The notes: generated by a model not told the origin, from the letters alone. DNA of 64,000 nucleotides from Escherichia coli (GCF_030013205.1 NZ_CP122648.1), one strand, 5' to 3'; shown: positions 42,732-46,994, counted from the first letter of the stretch. Program-made: numbers and translations.

Positions 42732-42905
42732 ATGAGAAAAGCCAGCGTGAAACCCGTTTTACTCGCTCGTGAGCAGATTGAAGCATTACAGCGCATCCAG
42801 GACGAGGAACGCCGCAATTCTCCGCTGGGGATTGCTCCGAGCATTCATGAGGTCGCCCGGCGTTTAATGCAGCGGGCGCTTTATCCCGTAGAACGTCCGG
42901 CCTGA
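42732..42905 (+). CDS. small hypothetical protein
   Basis: 57 codons from ATG 42732, SD CAGGAGA 7 nt upstream. Confidence 0.45.
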   Translation: MRKASVKPVLLAREQIEALQRIQDEERRNSPLGIAPSIHEVARRLMQRALYPVERPA

Positions 42906-42943
42906 TGGTCGTGATTTTTTGGTGAAAAAGAGAGGTGGTAAAA

Positions 42944-43528
42944 ATGCCAGCAAGCAAAGAAGATTTGCGATTAAAACTGATGGAGGTGGTTAACGCTCTG
43001 TCAGAGTCGCAGGGCAGCACTCCGCAGGAGATTATCGAAATTCTGAATGCGATCCCCGCACAGGATTTCACAAAAGCGGACGAGGATGACGCGAATAAAA
43101 ACATCGTCGCGTCAGTCGAAGATGAATCCTCACTGGCAGAAGCCCAGGCTAAAGCGGATTCCGCATACAGCAATATGGGCCGTCGAGCTCCGGCCCCGTT
43201 TGCTGGTGAAAAGTCGATGGATTACCGCAAGCGTGCATTAATTGGTGCACAGAAGCTGGCTAAAAAATTCAGTGATGTGGATATTCGTTCCGTTTCAGAT
43301 TCTGCAACGCTGGCGGTGCTGGAAGATCAGATTTACCAGGCTGCAAAAGACAGTGTTCAGTGGGCTGTGGAAAATACGCCGGGCTATTTGCGTAAAACCG
43401 TAAGAATGGATGAAGCCGGACGGCGGATTACTGAATATCAGGGGGATCCGAATAACTGGCTTAGTGCTTTCAAAATCCCTCCCCGTCGCCTGGTCAAAAT
43501 TAACACTGCAAGCCTCGCGGGGGCATGA
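42944..43528 (+). CDS. hypothetical acidic protein
   Basis: about 194 aa from ATG 42944 with SD AGAGGTGG; acidic, probably helical. Confidence 0.5.
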   Translation: MPASKEDLRLKLMEVVNALSESQGSTPQEIIEILNAIPAQDFTKADEDDANKNIVASVEDESSLAEAQAKADSAYSNMGRRAPAPFAGEKSMDYRKRALIGAQKLAKKFSDVDIRSVSDSATLAVLEDQIYQAAKDSVQWAVENTPGYLRKTVRMDEAGRRITEYQGDPNNWLSAFKIPPRRLVKINTASLAGA

Positions 43529-43592
43529 AAAACGTGCTGAGTTCAGCCCTGCCGGATTTGGCGGGGCTTATTGCTTATAACCGGATAACATT

Positions 43593-44276
43593 ATGCTTTT
43601 AACAGAAATTGAGGCGGCGAAGCAGATTCGGGACGGACAGCTACCGTCGCCTTATCAGTTTTCCAACATGTGGCTGGTTAACCTGCGTATCACAGGAACC
43701 GGAATGGCCTACCGCGCCGAAGAAAAAGAATTTGTCTGGCGTTCACCGCAAACTTATCTCAATCCGCAGTTCCTGGAACGTTGCGCCGGAGTACCCGTCA
43801 TTATCGACCATCCCGAAAGCAAAACCCTTGAAGACGTGGGCGAACGGTCGCGCATTATTGGCACCGTCATGTTGCCGTATATTCGCGGTGACGAGGTGTG
43901 GGGCGTATGCCGGATTTACGGACAGGAAATCATCGATTACATCCAGAAAGCCCGAGGGGAGGTATCCACCAGTCCGTCGGTTGTGTTTTGTGGTGCCTCA
44001 GGTGGGGCAGAAGTTCCTGATGTAATGGGCGAGGACAATTTTTTTATTGAGGGTACGCCATTTCTTATCGATCACGTTGCGCTCGTGCCGCTTGGTGTTT
44101 GGGATAAGGGCGGGAAACCATCGGGCGTGGAAGTAACAACGCCGACAGCAGAAGAACAGCTTGCCGGAATGGTCCGGGACGTTATTGATGCGGCCTGCAA
44201 GCCAGCTCTGGAAAAACTGGAAGAAATATCCGGGCGGCTGGATCAACTGGAAAAAAACAGAGTGAGTGAATCATGA
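43593..44276 (+). CDS. hypothetical protein
   Basis: 227-aa ORF; stop overlaps the next start. Confidence 0.55.
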   Translation: MLLTEIEAAKQIRDGQLPSPYQFSNMWLVNLRITGTGMAYRAEEKEFVWRSPQTYLNPQFLERCAGVPVIIDHPESKTLEDVGERSRIIGTVMLPYIRGDEVWGVCRIYGQEIIDYIQKARGEVSTSPSVVFCGASGGAEVPDVMGEDNFFIEGTPFLIDHVALVPLGVWDKGGKPSGVEVTTPTAEEQLAGMVRDVIDAACKPALEKLEEISGRLDQLEKNRVSES

Positions 44277-44890
44277 AAATTGCTAAAAACTTAAATCTGA
44301 TTATCCCTGTGCGCACTGAAAAGGGTAATGGCTGGCTCCATGCCACGCCGATCAGCAAAGAGGTGTTTAAAGAGCATTTCTTCATCCTGAGTAAAACCTT
44401 TTCTGCCATTTTTTCTGAAGGTCTTGGTGTTGTTGCGGGTCCGCGCGTTGCCTGCCTTATGCTGGAGAAAATCTCCCGTGACTCCGGTTTATGGGATGGG
44501 GAGAAAGGCATACGTAATACGCTCATAAACGAAATTATTCGCCTGGCAAACCTTGTTTATCCAGTGGAGGGCAAAGGCTACGACACAATCCCTCTCGATA
44601 TGGCGCTGGAGCGTGAAATCGTTGATTTGGACGAAGTGGCGGGTGAACTTGTTTTTTTTACATGCGTCTCGTCGATAAATTCCCCGGAGCAGACGAAGGG
44701 GACTATGGATGCGGTGAATGGAATATGGAGCACTCAATGCTCGTCCTTGAGTCTTACGGAATGGATCGATTCATTGCCGACATTGAAGCCTGCCGTCAGT
44801 TCTGGCGCGACGGCGAACACGTCATCAGCGACATCCTCGACTACTCAGCCGGAGCCGGATTCAGAGACATCTGTGCAGATTCCGGTCTGA
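44273..44890 (+). CDS. hypothetical protein; 3' end uncertain
   Basis: 205-aa ORF with low-complexity Ser/Thr-rich tail; alternative frame 44662-44955 is open across the same region. Confidence 0.4.
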   Translation: MKIAKNLNLIIPVRTEKGNGWLHATPISKEVFKEHFFILSKTFSAIFSEGLGVVAGPRVACLMLEKISRDSGLWDGEKGIRNTLINEIIRLANLVYPVEGKGYDTIPLDMALEREIVDLDEVAGELVFFTCVSSINSPEQTKGTMDAVNGIWSTQCSSLSLTEWIDSLPTLKPAVSSGATANTSSATSSTTQPEPDSETSVQIPV

Positions 44891-44954
44891 ATGTAAAAAC
44901 AGCAGCTCAGTTTCGTGAGCTGCTCAAATTCAAAAATCCCGCAGGAGTATTGTA

Positions 44955-46994
44955 ATGTCAGGTAATCAGATGCCAGTTCTGACGCTGGACGTTAATGAAG
45001 AACACCTCAAACGGCTTGAGGCAATTTTTGAAAAGTATCGCAACGGGCTGATGATCGGCCCTGCCGGAACGCCGATGAAAATACCGGGGCAAAGTGGGCG
45101 CAGCGTGGGGGCAGGCTTACCCGTGGCGGCAAAATCTGGTCGGACAGGACCGGATGTATCCGGGAGAGTGAGGGACGAAAAAGGGCGCTTTGTCGGCAGC
45201 GGAAAAACAGCAGATTCGTTCGTAAGCAACTATAAAGGTCGCGGCGAAACGATGTTTGATAAGTATCTCAGCGGGCTGGGGAAAAATGCCCAACAGACGC
45301 TGAAAACTTACAAGCAGATCAATTCTACACTACAGACGACCACTTCAAGATTAAACAACCTGTTTAAAACAACCGTATCGTGGGGAACAAAACTCTCGGT
45401 TATGGGCGTTGCCGGACCGTTTGGCTTTGGCATGATGTCCCGTAGTGTTGTAGAGAAACAGAAAAATGCAGATGAGCTGGTGGCAACGCCAGGAGAGTTA
45501 AAGGCGGCAGAAAGCACTTATTCGCCTTATTTTTCCGGTGTTGGCAATGTGCTCAATACACTGGCAGCAGCACAAAATGATATATCGCATCCTGCCCGCG
45601 TCGGCCTGCTTAATCTGGGGCTAAATCCTGATAAAAACGCGACTGAAAACCTGCCTGTATTCCTGAAAAAGGTTGCAGCGCTGGCAAAGGAATATCAGGG
45701 AACTGGTCTTACCCAGAGCAATTTCAGAGGAATGGGGCTTGGATGGGTAAATTTTGGTCTTACTAACCAGTTAGTCAAATATCAGGACAAAATACCTGAA
45801 CTCAACAAAGAGTTTTCGTTACGTGCAGCGCAGAATGATTCGTTACTGACCTCTGCACATACAAGTAAATATCAGAATATTACCAGTAACCTGGAAAAAA
45901 ACTGGGATCGGCTTACCAGCGGATTTCAGGGAGCAATGGCGGGGAATGAAGACGCTTTAATCAGAATGTCTGATGGTGCCACGAATGCTGCCCTGAATTT
46001 CATGAATGGTGAGAACTTTAAAAGGATTCTGACGGATGTAGAAACGGGGCTGGATAAACTTGGTAAGTACGTAAATGGCCCGGATTTTAATAACGACCTG
46101 AACAATTTTGCCGAAAACGTTGCAAAGGTTGTTAAGGCACTTAGCGGGTTTGTTGGTTTTGCGGTTGAACATCCCTGGCTTTTTGGGGCCGCAGTACTTG
46201 CTGGACCATCGAGAGTTGGTGCTGTGGCAGCCACAACGACCGGAGTTGCCGCCCGTGTTGTTGGTGGAAGTCTTCTTGGGGCTACAGCCGGAACAGTAGC
46301 TGGATTGGCTATTCCTACAAATGACACACCTACCACCAGTGAGGAAATGAAAGGGCTGGAGGGGCGTTTCAACTTTGATTATTTTAACGAAGTGCAGGAG
46401 TGGCAAAAAAACAATCCGGGTAAGGTCTGGCCTGGAGGATTGCAGGGATTTTCAAATCAAGTAAACAGATCTGCATATTTATCCAGAGGGATCAGGAATA
46501 ACAATCCCGGAAATCTTAATTTCGCAGGACAAAAAGGGGCTACCCTGGAATCGGGGCCAAATGCCCGTTTTGCCAGCTTCCCGACGATGCTGGAAGGCAT
46601 TGCCGCCTTAGATCGGCAGGTAATGCTATACCTGAAACGCGGCAAAAATACGATTGATCAGATTATTGATATTTATGCCCCTTCATCTGATGGAAATAAC
46701 ACATCGTCCTATAAAAGCTATCTCTCTCAGTACACCGGATTAGGTGTTAAGGAGAAAATCGATGGTTCTAATTTTGAGGTCATGAAAAAGCTAATTCAGG
46801 GCATTATTAACCATGAAAATGGTGCTGCCGCTAAAGCTGTAAGTGTTGAAGATGTGATCCGGGCGCTGGCTATGAATCGTGGGATTGTCCCTGCAGCAGG
46901 AAACAATGATCAGAACGTTAAGTTGGAAATTGTTCGGAACGCTGGTGCCGATTACTTCGCGCAACTAATTGGTGCTCAACGGTTCCTGGGATGA
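44955..46994 (+). CDS. large uncharacterised protein (tape-measure-like composition)
   Basis: 679-aa ORF with SD CAGGAG; Gly/Ala/Thr-rich hydrophobic stretch AVLAGPSRVGAVAATTTGVAARVVGGSLLGATAGTVAGLAIP; C-terminal motif RGIRNNNPGNLNFAG. Confidence 0.65.
   Translation: MSGNQMPVLTLDVNEEHLKRLEAIFEKYRNGLMIGPAGTPMKIPGQSGRSVGAGLPVAAKSGRTGPDVSGRVRDEKGRFVGSGKTADSFVSNYKGRGETMFDKYLSGLGKNAQQTLKTYKQINSTLQTTTSRLNNLFKTTVSWGTKLSVMGVAGPFGFGMMSRSVVEKQKNADELVATPGELKAAESTYSPYFSGVGNVLNTLAAAQNDISHPARVGLLNLGLNPDKNATENLPVFLKKVAALAKEYQGTGLTQSNFRGMGLGWVNFGLTNQLVKYQDKIPELNKEFSLRAAQNDSLLTSAHTSKYQNITSNLEKNWDRLTSGFQGAMAGNEDALIRMSDGATNAALNFMNGENFKRILTDVETGLDKLGKYVNGPDFNNDLNNFAENVAKVVKALSGFVGFAVEHPWLFGAAVLAGPSRVGAVAATTTGVAARVVGGSLLGATAGTVAGLAIPTNDTPTTSEEMKGLEGRFNFDYFNEVQEWQKNNPGKVWPGGLQGFSNQVNRSAYLSRGIRNNNPGNLNFAGQKGATLESGPNARFASFPTMLEGIAALDRQVMLYLKRGKNTIDQIIDIYAPSSDGNNTSSYKSYLSQYTGLGVKEKIDGSNFEVMKKLIQGIINHENGAAAKAVSVEDVIRALAMNRGIVPAAGNNDQNVKLEIVRNAGADYFAQLIGAQRFLG

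What the first reader, a model, noticed from the sequence alone, without database searches (positions are those of the whole stretch)
42732..46994. Five-gene operon of unknown function including a 679-aa low-complexity protein
After the terminators a new operon starts with five ORFs, none of which I can assign. The largest (44955-46994) has tape-measure-like composition: Gly/Ala/Thr-rich, a long hydrophobic glycine-zipper-like segment, and a conserved-looking C-terminal block RGIRNNNPGNLNFAG...IDIYAP. A tape-measure-like protein makes little sense in an element with no tail genes, so this module may be capsid or tail remodelling, helper interference, or an unrelated cargo system. It is the largest uncharacterised block in the window.
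Basis: partly seen in the sequence, partly recalled or inferred. Interest (0 to 1): 0.7.

Follow-up and report, generated by a model that had tools for sequence, protein, structure and literature searches.

The report
Satellite island with stolen tail ruler
The block is the late operon of a roughly 14.7-kb phage-parasite island in E. coli that carries its own diverged copies of its helper phage's head protease, head-scaffold domain, tail chaperone and tail tape-measure protein. It probably uses them to rebuild the helper's head and tail for its own spread, which has so far been shown by experiment only for an unrelated parasite in Vibrio cholerae.

Summary
The window is E. coli ETEC4079. The ORFs lie in a ~14.7-kb PICI-like satellite island inserted in yifB/comM.

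Four of the five "unassignable" ORFs are paralogs of morphogenesis genes of Rac-like myovirus prophages (Rac-SA53, pPE4, the UMNF18 prophage):
- ORF2 carries that protein's C-terminal domain (65% identity).
- ORF4 is the tail assembly chaperone. It has a conserved -1 slippery site, T_TTT_TTT, whose extension ends at the next gene's start.
- ORF5 is the tape measure protein (87% identity to a helper's), with an Enc34-type peptidoglycan glycosidase domain.
- ORF1, a conserved 57-aa protein, remains unassigned.

ORF1-3 form the core of a family found across Enterobacteriaceae. The chaperone and tape measure are an accessory insertion, lost by deletion at least twice. An Enterobacter relative carries a tape measure plus a baseplate hub instead.

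Island tape measures exchange their central part with helper genes. They keep island-specific ends, including the extreme C-terminus, which in phage Pa193 anchors the protein to the hub and tail tip.

Most likely function: capsid remodelling plus chimeric tail assembly, as shown for V. cholerae PLEs. The functions are inferred, not tested. I rate it a new variant of a known kind.

The parts
34204..48916 (+). Approximate extent of the PICI-like satellite island inserted in yifB/comM. Gene order: integrase, AlpA-like regulator, Ant, Icd-like, RepA helicase with iterons, ProQ/FinO, PerC, late operon.
   Evidence: PGAP annotation of the identical record shows the two yifB fragments and the island genes. 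PHROG matches identify the integrase, the excisionase/regulator and Ant. A 10-nt repeat AATAGCGGAT at 34194 and 48907 coincides with the ends of the yifB fragments; it is short and could be chance. An imperfect 59-nt direct repeat lies at 34299 and 48779.
42570..42600 (+). Terminator-like hairpin (12-bp stem, 7 G-C pairs, T-run) that closes the preceding ProQ/PerC unit.
42732..42905 (+). ORF1, 57 aa. Function unknown. It is always the first gene of the module. From the sequence pattern I guess a small ribbon-helix-helix-type DNA binder; this was not tested.
   Evidence: Identical or nearly identical in all E. coli islands examined. About 70-75% identical in islands of Klebsiella, Pantoea, Citrobacter and Enterobacter. 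No Pfam, PHROG or NCBIfam hit.
42944..43528 (+). ORF2, 194 aa. An island-specific N-terminal region of about 60 aa is followed by a paralog of the C-terminal domain of the helper's protease-scaffold fusion protein. It is a candidate alternative scaffold or capsid-binding protein.
   Evidence: Residues 63-191 (197-aa numbering, from the upstream GTG at 42935) are 65% identical to residues 295-433 of the helper's 430-440-aa protein. It matches phrog_6216 positions 405-545. A stand-alone form of 190-194 aa is widespread in Enterobacteriaceae. In Pa193, the region of the family's namesake protein gp24 that lies C-terminal to the protease-fold domain binds the capsid interior (PMC11456595). dN/dS is 0.11-0.23.
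43593..44276 (+). ORF3, 227 aa. A stand-alone prohead (capsid maturation) protease domain of family DUF2213/Pa193_gp24, followed by a C-terminal coiled coil. It is a paralog of the N-terminal half of the helper's protease-scaffold fusion.
44273..44890 (+). ORF4, 205 aa, zero-frame product. Tail assembly chaperone, paralog of the helper gene that lies between the tail tube and the tape measure.
44653..44659 (+). Slippery heptamer T_TTT_TTT for a programmed -1 frameshift (G/GT type).
   Evidence: The same heptamer sits at codon 127 in two islands, three helper phages and a distant Yersinia phage that is 33% identical.
44659..44955 (+). The -1 frame extension of the chaperone: 98 codons, ending at the tape-measure start codon.
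   Evidence: The extension is open in all six sequences and ends at or within about 10 nt of the TMP start. Its protein sequence is also conserved in the Yersinia phage.
44955..46994 (+). ORF5, 679 aa. Tape measure protein, island allele.
   Evidence: 87% identical over its full length to the UMNF18 Rac-like prophage TMP, 88.6% over aa 1-501 to the pPE4 TMP, and 49% to the Rac-SA53 TMP. phrog_7694, E 1.9e-290. It is intact at 679 aa in every island copy of this variant examined (7 copies), with dN/dS 0.08-0.17 among six of them.
45069..45254 (+). Island-specific N-proximal segment of the TMP, about aa 39-100, with a 7-aa deletion relative to helpers.
   Evidence: All island TMPs share the island-type segment, in two subtypes. 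All three helper TMPs share a different one, although their cores are only 40% identical to each other. dS against the helper is saturated in this segment.
46146..46319 (+). Gly/Ala-rich hydrophobic stretch of the TMP, aa ~398-455.
   Evidence: Kyte-Doolittle 19-residue windows exceed 1.2.
46467..46874 (+). PHA02564 / Enc34-ORF39-type peptidoglycan glycosidase domain of the TMP, aa ~505-640. The putative catalytic Glu621 (HENG), Tyr586 and an aromatic residue at 574 are retained.
   Evidence: PDB sequence hits: 9vvp Gp29 (E 1.6e-12) and 7q47 Enc34 endolysin (E 1.3e-10). Catalytic residues are taken from PMC8943055. Positions in ORF5 are; the Glu correspondence rests on my reading of the alignment.
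46857..46994 (+). Island-specific C-terminal ~45 aa of the TMP (...LEIVRNAGADYFAQLIGAQRFLG). The equivalent end of the TMP anchors it to the tail hub and tip in phage Pa193.
   Evidence: Five of the six island copies compared are 98-100% identical here; ETEC1749 is 84-87%. They are 24-47% identical to helpers, which all end ...PGSDI(L/V)AQLAG(M/T)QQIPG. dS is 1.25 against the helper. No tblastn match in 50,697 phage records at E<=10, whereas the helper-type control peptide hits both Rac-like phage records. The DNA is found only in island contexts in E. coli. The Pa193 TMP C-terminus binds hub and tip (PMC11456595).
47046..47573 (+). ORF6, 175 aa. Its N-terminal helix-turn-helix resembles small terminase subunits. 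It is probably the packaging-specificity gene and part of the same operon.
   Evidence: phrog_57 terminase small subunit, E 5.4e-7, residues 1-42. It directly follows ORF3 in islands that lack the tail genes. The same position holds Sf6-terminase-like small terminase genes in Klebsiella, Pantoea and Citrobacter islands.
47574..47807 (+). Cluster of AAAAAGTGTCAA repeats, including an inverted pair. Candidate packaging site or other DNA-binding site.
   Evidence: families D3, D5, D7

Best explanation
The region is the late (morphogenesis) operon of a PICI-like phage satellite whose helpers are Rac-like myovirus prophages.

Shown by homology:
- The island encodes its own diverged copies of four helper assembly proteins.
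- The helper's single protease-scaffold polypeptide is split and reordered in the island. ORF2 holds the C-terminal domain, ORF3 holds the protease domain, and the ~70-aa Ala/Glu/Lys-rich linker is missing.
- These are followed by the tail assembly chaperone, with its -1 frameshift, and the tape measure protein.

Inferred mechanism:
1. When a helper is induced, ORF2 and ORF3 enter helper procapsid assembly and redirect it to capsids sized for the ~14.7-kb island. The 175-aa TerS-like protein directs packaging of island DNA.
2. The island chaperone and tape measure seed tail assembly on helper baseplates. The result is chimeric tails with helper tube, sheath, baseplate and fibres around an island tape measure.
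3. The tape measure's island-specific ends are the likely specificity determinants: the N-proximal segment, and the C-terminal hub/tip anchor. The central part is freely exchanged with helper alleles.
4. Tail length should not change, because the island protein is only 7 aa shorter than the UMNF18 helper's (about 1 nm).

The likely benefit is independence from, or competition with, the helper's own tape measure. This could give preferential tail supply, or escape from factors that target the helper tape measure at assembly or DNA entry. The tail module is accessory, because relatives spread without it.

On confidence: the identity of the parts (a satellite carrying helper-derived protease, scaffold domain, chaperone and tape measure) is about 0.9. 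The stated confidence of 0.55 is for the full inferred mechanism.
For: Identity of the parts:
- Homology to helper genes.
- ORF3: protease fold and conserved catalytic-type residues.
- ORF4: frameshift signal conserved from the island to a 33%-identical Yersinia phage.
- ORF5: glycosidase domain with its catalytic residues retained.

Satellite nature of the island:
- Integrase, AlpA-like regulator, Ant, RepA helicase with iterons, a TerS-like gene, and no capsid, portal, sheath or lysis genes, in ~14.7 kb.
- The same module occurs with different integrases at four chromosomal sites, and twice in this genome.

Helper link:
- At least 8 of 13 E. coli genomes with a TMP-bearing island also hold the Rac-like prophage, against 93 of 5426 overall. 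Hypergeometric P = 6.6e-12; strain relatedness is not corrected for.
- In Citrobacter and Pantoea the same satellite family sits inside the helper prophage's terL gene.

Evidence that the genes are kept functional:
- dN/dS is about 0.05-0.4 where enough substitutions exist.
- Stand-alone ORF2 and ORF3 forms persist down to 50-56% identity across genera.

The island tape measure is a long-standing island allele:
- Synonymous divergence from the helper is saturated at the two ends and 0-0.37 in the core. One 200-codon tract is identical between the ETEC1749 island and the UMNF18 prophage, which are in different strains.
- All E. coli and Salmonella island alleles, in three variants, lack the helper-invariant C-terminal (M/T)QQIPG.

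Recurrence:
- An Enterobacter hormaechei island of the same family carries a tape measure plus a baseplate hub at different positions.

Precedent and structure:
- V. cholerae PLEs encode a chaperone, tape measure and hub and build chimeric tails; deleting tmp cuts transduction by 96-99.9% (10.1101/2025.01.29.635557 / PMC12987554).
- In Pa193, the last ~19 residues of the tape measure bind the hub and tail tip, and the region of the DUF2213-family protein that lies C-terminal to the protease-fold domain binds the capsid interior (PMC11456595).
Against: - No experiment bears on this element. Induction, small capsids, packaging and incorporation of the island tape measure are all inferred.
- The chaperone and tape measure are dispensable for the family. 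They are absent in FDAARGOS_1058 and in the Klebsiella, Citrobacter and Pantoea islands. They were removed by at least two independent deletions in E. coli.
- Low dN/dS in the tape-measure core could be imported from helper genes by gene conversion rather than reflect selection in the island.
- In two of the three island variants, the altered last residues coincide with the junction to the next island gene. They could be a by-product of recombination rather than an adaptation.
- The E. coli islands carry no hub of their own, so how an altered anchor would still dock is unexplained.
- I did not find a helper prophage in ETEC4079 itself in the lists available. STEC346 has the island without the helper.
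Confidence: 0.55

Rival explanations
1. Interference or defence. The island tape measure and chaperone act as dominant-negative competitors. They engage helper tail components, but their altered hub/tip anchor makes the products defective. This lowers helper yield, as tail-assembly inhibition does, rather than building tails for the satellite.
For: All E. coli and Salmonella island alleles lack the helper-invariant C-terminal (M/T)QQIPG, and these islands carry no cognate hub. The equivalent end anchors the tape measure to hub and tip in Pa193. Satellites and prophages are known to block helper tail assembly: the Tai systems (PMC11364771) and Rta of PLE11.
Against: A satellite needs tails too, so poisoning them would cut its own transfer. 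The whole 679-aa protein is conserved, including an intact glycosidase domain and the chaperone's frameshift signal. That is more than a decoy would need. Known tail inhibitors are small unrelated proteins.
Confidence: 0.15
2. Passenger or backup copy. The chaperone and tape-measure genes were picked up by recombination with a helper and persist mainly because gene conversion with helper alleles keeps refreshing them. They have little function of their own and are on their way to being lost.
For: At least two independent deletions, and islands that lack the genes entirely. Tracts identical to a helper prophage's gene. The last residues coincide with the junction in two variants. RM9088 has a changed T-run in the chaperone. 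Capture of helper late genes by Gram-negative satellites has been reported as a general trend (10.1101/2022.07.18.500453).
Against: The two ends of the tape measure and the chaperone show saturated or high synonymous divergence from helpers (dS about 0.5 to >1.2), yet are conserved among islands at different chromosomal sites and in Salmonella. This points to an old, maintained island lineage. All nine island TMP ORFs examined in E. coli are intact. A relative independently acquired a tape measure plus hub.
Confidence: 0.17
3. Entry-stage function. The island tape measure is incorporated into tails like the helper's. Its benefit comes at the next infection: it evades superinfection exclusion or host factors that recognise the helper tape measure during DNA injection. 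That would let satellite DNA enter cells that already carry the helper prophage.
For: The tape measure is highly polymorphic among otherwise ~97-99% identical Rac-like prophages: 40% core identity between SA53 and pPE4, and two unrelated peptidoglycan-hydrolase domains. That pattern fits an arms-race locus. Tape measures are known targets of exclusion and entry factors (HK97 work cited in PMC11364771; otherwise from my own knowledge).
Against: No exclusion gene was identified here. Tails assemble separately from heads, so helper virions would gain the same benefit. The island-specific parts are the assembly-related ends, not the membrane-active core or the enzyme domain.
Confidence: 0.08
4. 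The whole region is a decaying fragment of a Rac-like prophage and not a satellite.
For: Four genes are homologous to prophage morphogenesis genes.
Against: The architecture is conserved across genera with its own integrases, replication modules and TerS-like genes. Genes non-adjacent in the helper are joined, in a fixed order of their own. Selection is purifying. One genome holds two copies. The element co-resides with intact helpers.
Confidence: 0.02

Closest known systems
Vibrio cholerae PLE satellites: tail assembly chaperone, TMP and BhuB hub; chimeric tails (Nature 2026, PMC12987554; preprint 10.1101/2025.01.29.635557)
   Same: A phage satellite that lacks most tail genes still encodes its own chaperone and tape measure next to capsid-remodelling genes. 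A relative in the same family (Enterobacter) adds a baseplate hub, as PLEs do. The helper is a contractile-tailed phage.
   Different: - It is an unrelated satellite lineage: PICI-like, with an integrase and an AlpA-like regulator, in Enterobacteriaceae, with a temperate helper.
- The island tape measure is 87% identical to the helper's (about 20% in PLE) and is a mosaic that still recombines with helper alleles.
- The length is nearly equal to the helper's, so no tail shortening is expected.
- The module is accessory, not universal in the family.
- There is no hub in the E. coli version, and no Rta-like inhibitor was identified.
- Nothing has been tested by experiment.
SaPI capsid-size redirection (CpmA/CpmB; Ccm of SaPIbov5) and P4 Sid
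   Same: The satellite encodes a protein related to a helper head-assembly protein, here ORF2 as a paralog of the helper's scaffold-side domain. The island is roughly one third of the helper genome, which is the usual setting for small-capsid formation.
   Different: Here the helper's protease-scaffold fusion is split into two separate satellite genes, and the satellite also keeps a seemingly active prohead protease. No structure or capsid-size data exist. P4 Sid is an external scaffold with no such homology.
Gram-negative PICIs such as EcCICFT073 (Rpp-based packaging redirection; PMC6739421)
   Same: Same general layout and size: integrase, AlpA-like regulator, replication module with iterons, and a small DNA-binding packaging protein near the right end.
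   Different: No match to a solved Rpp structure was found. The helpers are Rac-like myoviruses rather than lambdoid cos phages. This family carries protease, scaffold and tail paralogs.
Helper-embedded satellites of lambdoid prophages (10.1101/2022.07.18.500453)
   Same: Members of this family in Citrobacter and Pantoea are integrated inside a late gene (terL) of their helper prophage and carry captured helper late genes.
   Different: The window's island is in a chromosomal gene (yifB), not in a prophage. The helper type and the target gene also differ.
cf-PICIs and mycobacterial EPIPs with predicted tmp genes
   Same: Satellites in which a tape-measure gene has been predicted (PMC12987554 Extended Data Fig. 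10; 10.64898/2025.12.02.691453).
   Different: cf-PICIs encode a full capsid set, and EPIPs have a serine integrase and their own capsid and connector genes. This island has neither.

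Membership tests
PICI-type phage satellite | Small island (~10-18 kb) with an integrase at one end, inserted at a specific chromosomal site | tested here: met
   About 14.7 kb between the two yifB fragments, with a tyrosine integrase at the left end.
PICI-type phage satellite | AlpA-type regulator (Gram-negative PICIs) and its own replication module (primase or helicase plus an iteron origin) | tested here: met
   A 62-aa excisionase/regulator (phrog_2790 and phrog_66). 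The Salmonella relative is Pfam Phage_AlpA. RepA-family helicase, with iterons at 40506-40700.
PICI-type phage satellite | Lacks most virion and lysis genes but has a packaging-specificity gene | tested here: met
   No capsid, portal, sheath, tube, baseplate or lysis gene in the island. There is a TerS-like HTH gene at 47046-47573.
PICI-type phage satellite | Induced and packaged by a helper phage; interferes with it | not testable with these tools
   Only indirect support: co-occurrence with Rac-like prophages and embedding in the helper's terL in other genera.
Tape measure protein | Encoded directly downstream of the frameshifting chaperone, in the tube-chaperone-TMP-baseplate order of a tailed phage | tested here: met
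   The helper orthologs sit after the sheath, tube and chaperone genes and before the baseplate genes. The island keeps the chaperone-TMP pair.
Tape measure protein | Long protein with a hydrophobic segment; it often has a C-terminal peptidoglycan hydrolase domain, and its C-terminus docks in the hub or tip | tested here: met
   679 aa, with a hydrophobic stretch at aa 398-455 and a PHA02564 glycosidase domain at aa 505-640. The docking role is inferred from Pa193 and was not tested.
Tape measure protein | Its length sets the tail length; it is present inside the tail tube of virions | not testable with these tools
   Needs electron microscopy and mass spectrometry of particles.
Tail assembly chaperone (G/GT type) | Programmed -1 frameshift at a slippery heptamer that gives two products with a shared N-terminus, encoded just upstream of the TMP | tested here: met
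   T_TTT_TTT at codon 127, with a 98-107-codon -1 extension ending at the TMP start. This is conserved in 6 of 6 sequences, down to 33% identity. Frameshifting itself has not been measured.
Tail assembly chaperone (G/GT type) | Fold of known chaperones (HK97 2OB9, PLE1 5IR0) | tested here: inconclusive
HK97/T4 gp21/assemblin-fold prohead protease (DUF2213 / Pa193_gp24) | Protease fold | tested here: met
HK97/T4 gp21/assemblin-fold prohead protease (DUF2213 / Pa193_gp24) | Catalytic His/Ser residues retained | tested here: inconclusive
   H73 and S125/S127 are invariant, with spacing like that of known family members (the comparison is from my own knowledge). The catalytic residues of DUF2213 have not been defined by experiment.
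Scaffolding protein (alternative, satellite-encoded) | Binds the helper major capsid protein and alters procapsid size | not testable with these tools
   Only homology of ORF2 to the C-terminal domain of the helper protease-scaffold protein, and analogy to Pa193 gp24.
Known anti-phage defence systems (PADLOC) | A match to a model of any known or candidate defence protein | tested here: not met
   No hit better than E 0.0068, and that one is a generic HTH in the neighbouring 175-aa protein, not in the five ORFs.

The most novel reading that the evidence does not exclude
Enterobacterial PICI-like satellites of Rac-like myoviruses have repeatedly captured the tail-initiation core of their helper: chaperone plus tape measure in E. 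coli and Salmonella, tape measure plus hub in Enterobacter. They keep 'private' tape-measure ends, the N-proximal segment and the C-terminal hub/tip anchor, while the middle is continually homogenised with helper alleles. On this reading the two ends are a specificity code. It lets the satellite tape measure be chosen for, or out-compete the helper's in, tail assembly. That would make this a second, genetically tractable and evolutionarily young case of chimeric-tail piracy, and one that maps which parts of a tape measure decide its incorporation.
Probability: 0.3. Interest if true: 0.75.

Novelty: new variant of a known kind. Interest (0 to 1): 0.6.

Why it matters
Satellite-encoded tape measures that build chimeric tails were demonstrated only recently, and only for V. 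cholerae PLEs. How the satellite's tape measure is chosen over the phage's is explicitly unknown there.

This element would be an independent occurrence in E. coli and Salmonella, which are easy to manipulate genetically. The helpers are temperate Rac-like prophages found in laboratory-friendly strains.

The island and helper tape measures are almost identical except at their two ends. Nature has therefore already narrowed the candidate specificity determinants to about 60 N-proximal residues and about 45 C-terminal residues, which makes the open question directly testable by swapping the ends.

The split protease-scaffold pair (ORF2/ORF3) is also a capsid-remodelling design that I did not find described for any satellite.

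On the practical side, several database names for these proteins look misleading: 'NUDIX hydrolase', 'TolA' and 'lytic transglycosylase domain-containing protein'.

Tried and rejected
- **Family searches.** PADLOC found nothing meaningful for the five ORFs. NCBIfam gave no match above cut-off for any of them. Pfam found nothing for ORF1, ORF2 or ORF5.
- **Solved structures.** PDB sequence search found nothing for ORF2 or ORF3, and only noise for the 175-aa protein, so there is no support for calling it Rpp.
- **RNA.** Rfam found no RNA family in the island.
- **C-terminal peptide search.** A search of the 5.8-billion-protein collection with the island C-terminal peptide returned one fragment and did not even recover the island's own protein. 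I treat it as uninformative. I used tblastn against phage records, with a helper-type control peptide, instead.
- **Enterobacter 342-aa gene.** I guessed it was a captured major capsid protein because its length matches. BLASTP rejected that, and PHROG plus tblastn showed it is a baseplate hub.
- **DUF2213-TMP fusion.** I considered that the deletion variants (U90, cq9, ETEC1738) make an in-frame fusion of DUF2213 to the TMP tail. The one I inspected (U90) does not, and the TMP remnant there is non-coding.
- **Helper in ETEC4079.** I could not establish whether ETEC4079 itself carries a helper prophage. It is absent from the 60-row lists of two searches, but 30-33 records were not shown in each.
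- **att core.** The att core could not be defined cleanly. Only a 10-nt repeat sits at the yifB fragment ends.
- **Literature.** Searches found no description of this element or of a Rac-type satellite.

Full report
**Where the window comes from**

The region 42700-47600 is 100% identical to the chromosome of E. coli ETEC4079, a porcine isolate. In that record the five ORFs lie inside a block that interrupts yifB/comM. The block holds, in order:
- a tyrosine integrase;
- a 62-aa AlpA-like regulator;
- an Ant-type antirepressor;
- Icd-like genes;
- a RepA-family helicase followed by iterons;
- a ProQ/FinO protein;
- a PerC-family regulator;
- the five ORFs;
- a 175-aa protein with a small-terminase-like helix-turn-helix.

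These assignments rest. The block is about 14.7 kb. It contains no capsid, portal, sheath, tube, baseplate or lysis gene. This is the anatomy of a Gram-negative PICI-type phage satellite.

**Checking the observation**

All five ORFs are present as described. A strong terminator-like hairpin at 42570-42600 precedes them.

Two things were missed:
- ORF4 contains a slippery heptamer, T_TTT_TTT, at 44653-44659. A -1 shift there opens a 98-codon frame that ends exactly at the ORF5 start codon.
- Nothing terminator-like separates ORF5 from the 175-aa gene, so the operon probably runs on.

**What the ORFs are**

A tblastn search of ORF5 against phage records found close relatives in only two genomes: Escherichia phage Rac-SA53, and a record named Actinobacillus phage vB_Apl-pPE4. 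It also found distant relatives in Yersinia vB_YenM phages. In these myoviruses the homolog sits in the classical tape-measure position, after the sheath, the tube and a 205-aa gene, and before the baseplate genes.

Direct comparisons gave the following:

| Island ORF | Helper counterpart | Identity |
|---|---|---|
| ORF3 | residues 1-226 of the helper's 430-440-aa DUF2213 protein | 54% |
| ORF2, residues 63-191 (197-aa numbering) | residues 295-433 of the same helper protein | 65% |
| ORF4 | the 205-aa gene upstream of the tape measure | 82-85% |
| ORF5 | the tape measure of the Rac-like prophage in strain UMNF18, full length | 87% |

The helper's single head protein is therefore split and reordered in the island. 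Its ~70-aa Ala/Glu/Lys-rich linker is missing.

- **ORF5.** Its C-terminal domain belongs to the PHA02564/Enc34-ORF39 glycosidase family. The catalytic glutamate (E621 by my reading of the alignment), Tyr586 and an aromatic residue at 574 are retained.
- **ORF1.** It remains unassigned. It is conserved (~70-75% identity) at the same position in islands of other genera.

**The helper**

Intact Rac-like prophages occur in 90-93 of 5426 complete E. coli genomes. Of the 13 genomes that carry a TMP-bearing island, at least 8 also carry this prophage. The hypergeometric P is 6.6e-12, and strain relatedness is not corrected for.

In Citrobacter braakii and Pantoea agglomerans the same satellite family is followed directly by the 3' third of the helper's terL and then its portal gene. 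In other words, the satellite is integrated inside the helper prophage.

The link is not absolute. STEC346 has the island without the helper. I could not show a helper in ETEC4079 itself.

**Core and accessory parts**

ORF1-3 followed by a small-terminase-like gene is the conserved core of the family. It is found in E. coli, Salmonella, Citrobacter, Enterobacter, Pantoea and Klebsiella, with stand-alone ORF2 and ORF3 forms down to 50-56% identity.

The chaperone and tape measure are an insertion between ORF3 and the 175-aa gene:
- FDAARGOS_1058 lacks them with no remnant.
- ETEC6335 keeps a truncated ORF4 and the last ~55 nt of ORF5.
- U90, cq9 and ETEC1738, and apparently a second island in ETEC4090, keep only the last ~140 nt of ORF5, joined to the end of ORF3.

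At least two independent deletions have therefore removed the pair.

Intact copies occur at four chromosomal sites with different integrases: yifB, tRNA-Pro, abgR-smrA and tRNA-Gly. They occur twice in ETEC4079 and also in Salmonella.

An Enterobacter hormaechei island of the same family carries a different set. It has a 633-aa tape measure (38% identical to ORF5) upstream of ORF1. It also has a 342-aa baseplate hub (51% identical to the helper's hub) between ORF1 and ORF2. Tail-initiation genes have thus entered this satellite family more than once.

**Are the genes maintained?**

Pairwise dN/dS among island copies is 0.11-0.23 for ORF2. It is 0.06-0.10 in six of seven pairs for ORF3. For ORF4 and ORF5 it is about 0.1-0.2 in every pair that has more than a handful of substitutions. 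ORF5 is intact at 679 aa in every island copy of this variant examined, seven in all.

The tape measure is a mosaic. Against the UMNF18 helper allele, synonymous divergence varies along the gene:
- It is saturated at codons 39-100 and from codon 641 to the end (dS >1.2).
- It is 0-0.37 in the core.
- The ETEC1749 island is identical to that prophage over codons 301-500.

The core is therefore being homogenised with helper genes. This weakens dN/dS as evidence for selection on that part. The two ends are old island-lineage sequence.

**The ends sort by element type**

All island tape measures share an N-proximal segment that is shorter than the helpers'. All three helper alleles share a different one, although their cores are only 40% identical and their enzyme domains are unrelated: Enc34-type in one, SLT-type in the other two.

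At the C-terminus all helpers end ...PGSDI(L/V)AQLAG(M/T)QQIPG. Island variants end differently:
- ...AGADYFAQLIGAQRFLG
- ...AQLAGFSGLMPR
- ...AQLAGVWVPR

The island-type end has no match in 50,697 phage records, whereas a helper-type control peptide finds both Rac-like phage records. [quoted passage not shown] The part that differs is therefore the anchor.

There is a caveat. In the two variants ending in ...PR, the change coincides with the junction to the next island gene and may be a recombination by-product.

**Mechanism**

The best-supported reading has two parts. Both are inferred from homology and from precedent.
1. ORF2 and ORF3 redirect helper head assembly to capsids suited to a ~14.7-kb genome, with the TerS-like protein giving packaging specificity.
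2. The island chaperone and tape measure enter helper tail assembly and give chimeric tails.

The precedent for the second part is recent. All V. cholerae PLEs encode a chaperone and a tape measure (PLE11 also a baseplate hub). PLE11 particles were shown to contain the PLE tape measure and hub in place of the phage's. Deleting tmp lowers transduction by 96-99.9%.

That work notes predicted tmp genes in PLE-like elements and in some cf-PICIs. A mycobacterial preprint reports another case. I found no description of the present family.

Differences from PLE:
- the very high identity to the helper;
- the ongoing recombination with helper alleles;
- the equal length (679 against 686 aa, about 1 nm);
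- the accessory status of the module;
- the absence of a hub in the E. coli version.

**Rivals**

Three rival readings remain open: a dominant-negative (interference) role, a slowly decaying passenger, and a benefit at DNA entry. The repeated deletions favour 'dispensable'. The old, conserved island-specific ends, the retained frameshift signal and the independent tape-measure-plus-hub acquisition favour 'functional'. A degraded-prophage reading is contradicted by the conserved, self-contained architecture.

**Verdict**

The finding is real and can be assigned. It is a new variant of a known kind of system. It is of good interest to phage-satellite specialists, because it offers a tractable second system for chimeric tail assembly and a natural map of the tape-measure regions that may decide incorporation. 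None of the functional steps has been tested.

Noticed in passing
L016 (NZ_CP122643.1 955700-983915), island at about 1619-15218: The same genome (ETEC4079) holds a second island of the family at tRNA-Gly/actS. It has a different integrase and primase but the same ORF1-3, chaperone, 679-aa tape measure and 175-aa gene.
   Followed up: partly
L022:5106-12678 (Citrobacter braakii) and L010:8140-18666 (Pantoea agglomerans): In these genera the satellite is followed directly by the 3' third of the helper terL (aa 332-442) and then the helper portal and head genes. The satellite is therefore integrated inside the helper prophage's large terminase gene, as a helper-embedded satellite of a non-lambdoid helper.
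   Followed up: partly
L024:1579-7242 (Enterobacter hormaechei): A relative island carries a 633-aa tape measure upstream of ORF1, and a 342-aa baseplate hub (phrog_196; 51% identical to the helper hub) between ORF1 and ORF2. No chaperone was detected.
   Followed up: partly
L004 (GenBank PP818812, 'Actinobacillus phage vB_Apl-pPE4'): This record is 99.6% identical over 10.6 kb to a prophage of E. coli strain cq9, and ~97-99% identical to dozens of other E. coli prophages. The Actinobacillus host label looks doubtful.
   Followed up: no
L007:6348-7784; window 42944-43528; relatives of window 43593-44276: Several database names look misleading. The Rac-like portal protein (phrog_146, Pfam Phage_portal_3) is named 'anti-CBASS protein Acb1 family protein' by PGAP. 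ORF2 is named 'NUDIX hydrolase' without any Nudix domain. Relatives of ORF3 are named 'TolA'. Some distant phage homologs do carry an N-terminal Nudix domain, which probably seeded the name.
   Followed up: partly
window 47574-47807 and 40506-40700: There are two iteron clusters. AAAAAGTGTCAA repeats, with an inverted pair, lie just after the TerS-like gene and are a candidate packaging site. AAAAGTGGG-type repeats lie just after the repA helicase and are a candidate replication origin.
   Followed up: no
window 41680-42530: A ProQ/FinO-family RNA-binding protein and a PerC-family transcriptional activator immediately precede the late operon in every island examined. They may control it. PerC relatives regulate virulence genes in pathogenic E. 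coli (from my own knowledge).
   Followed up: no
L019:3068-3684 (E. coli RM9088): The chaperone's slippery run is T7 instead of T8, and PGAP calls the gene frameshifted. This is either a homopolymer sequencing error or a change that alters the ratio of the two chaperone products.
   Followed up: no
L003, L004 and L007, tape-measure genes: Rac-like prophages that are ~97-99% identical in their head genes carry very different tape measures. Core identity is 40%, and the C-terminal peptidoglycan-hydrolase domain is either SLT-type or Enc34-type. The tape measure is a hypervariable, domain-swapping locus in the helper itself.
   Followed up: partly
window 43545-43568: A 10-bp G+C-rich hairpin without a clear T-run sits in the 64-nt gap between ORF2 and ORF3. 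It could be a partial terminator or an RNA-processing site that sets the ORF2:ORF3 ratio.
   Followed up: no
L012:1023-22774 (E. coli STEC005); L006 (FDAARGOS_1058): One integration site of the family, abgR-smrA, lies only ~6 kb from the Rac attachment site (ttcA/intR). Satellite and helper can therefore be near neighbours on the chromosome.
   Followed up: no
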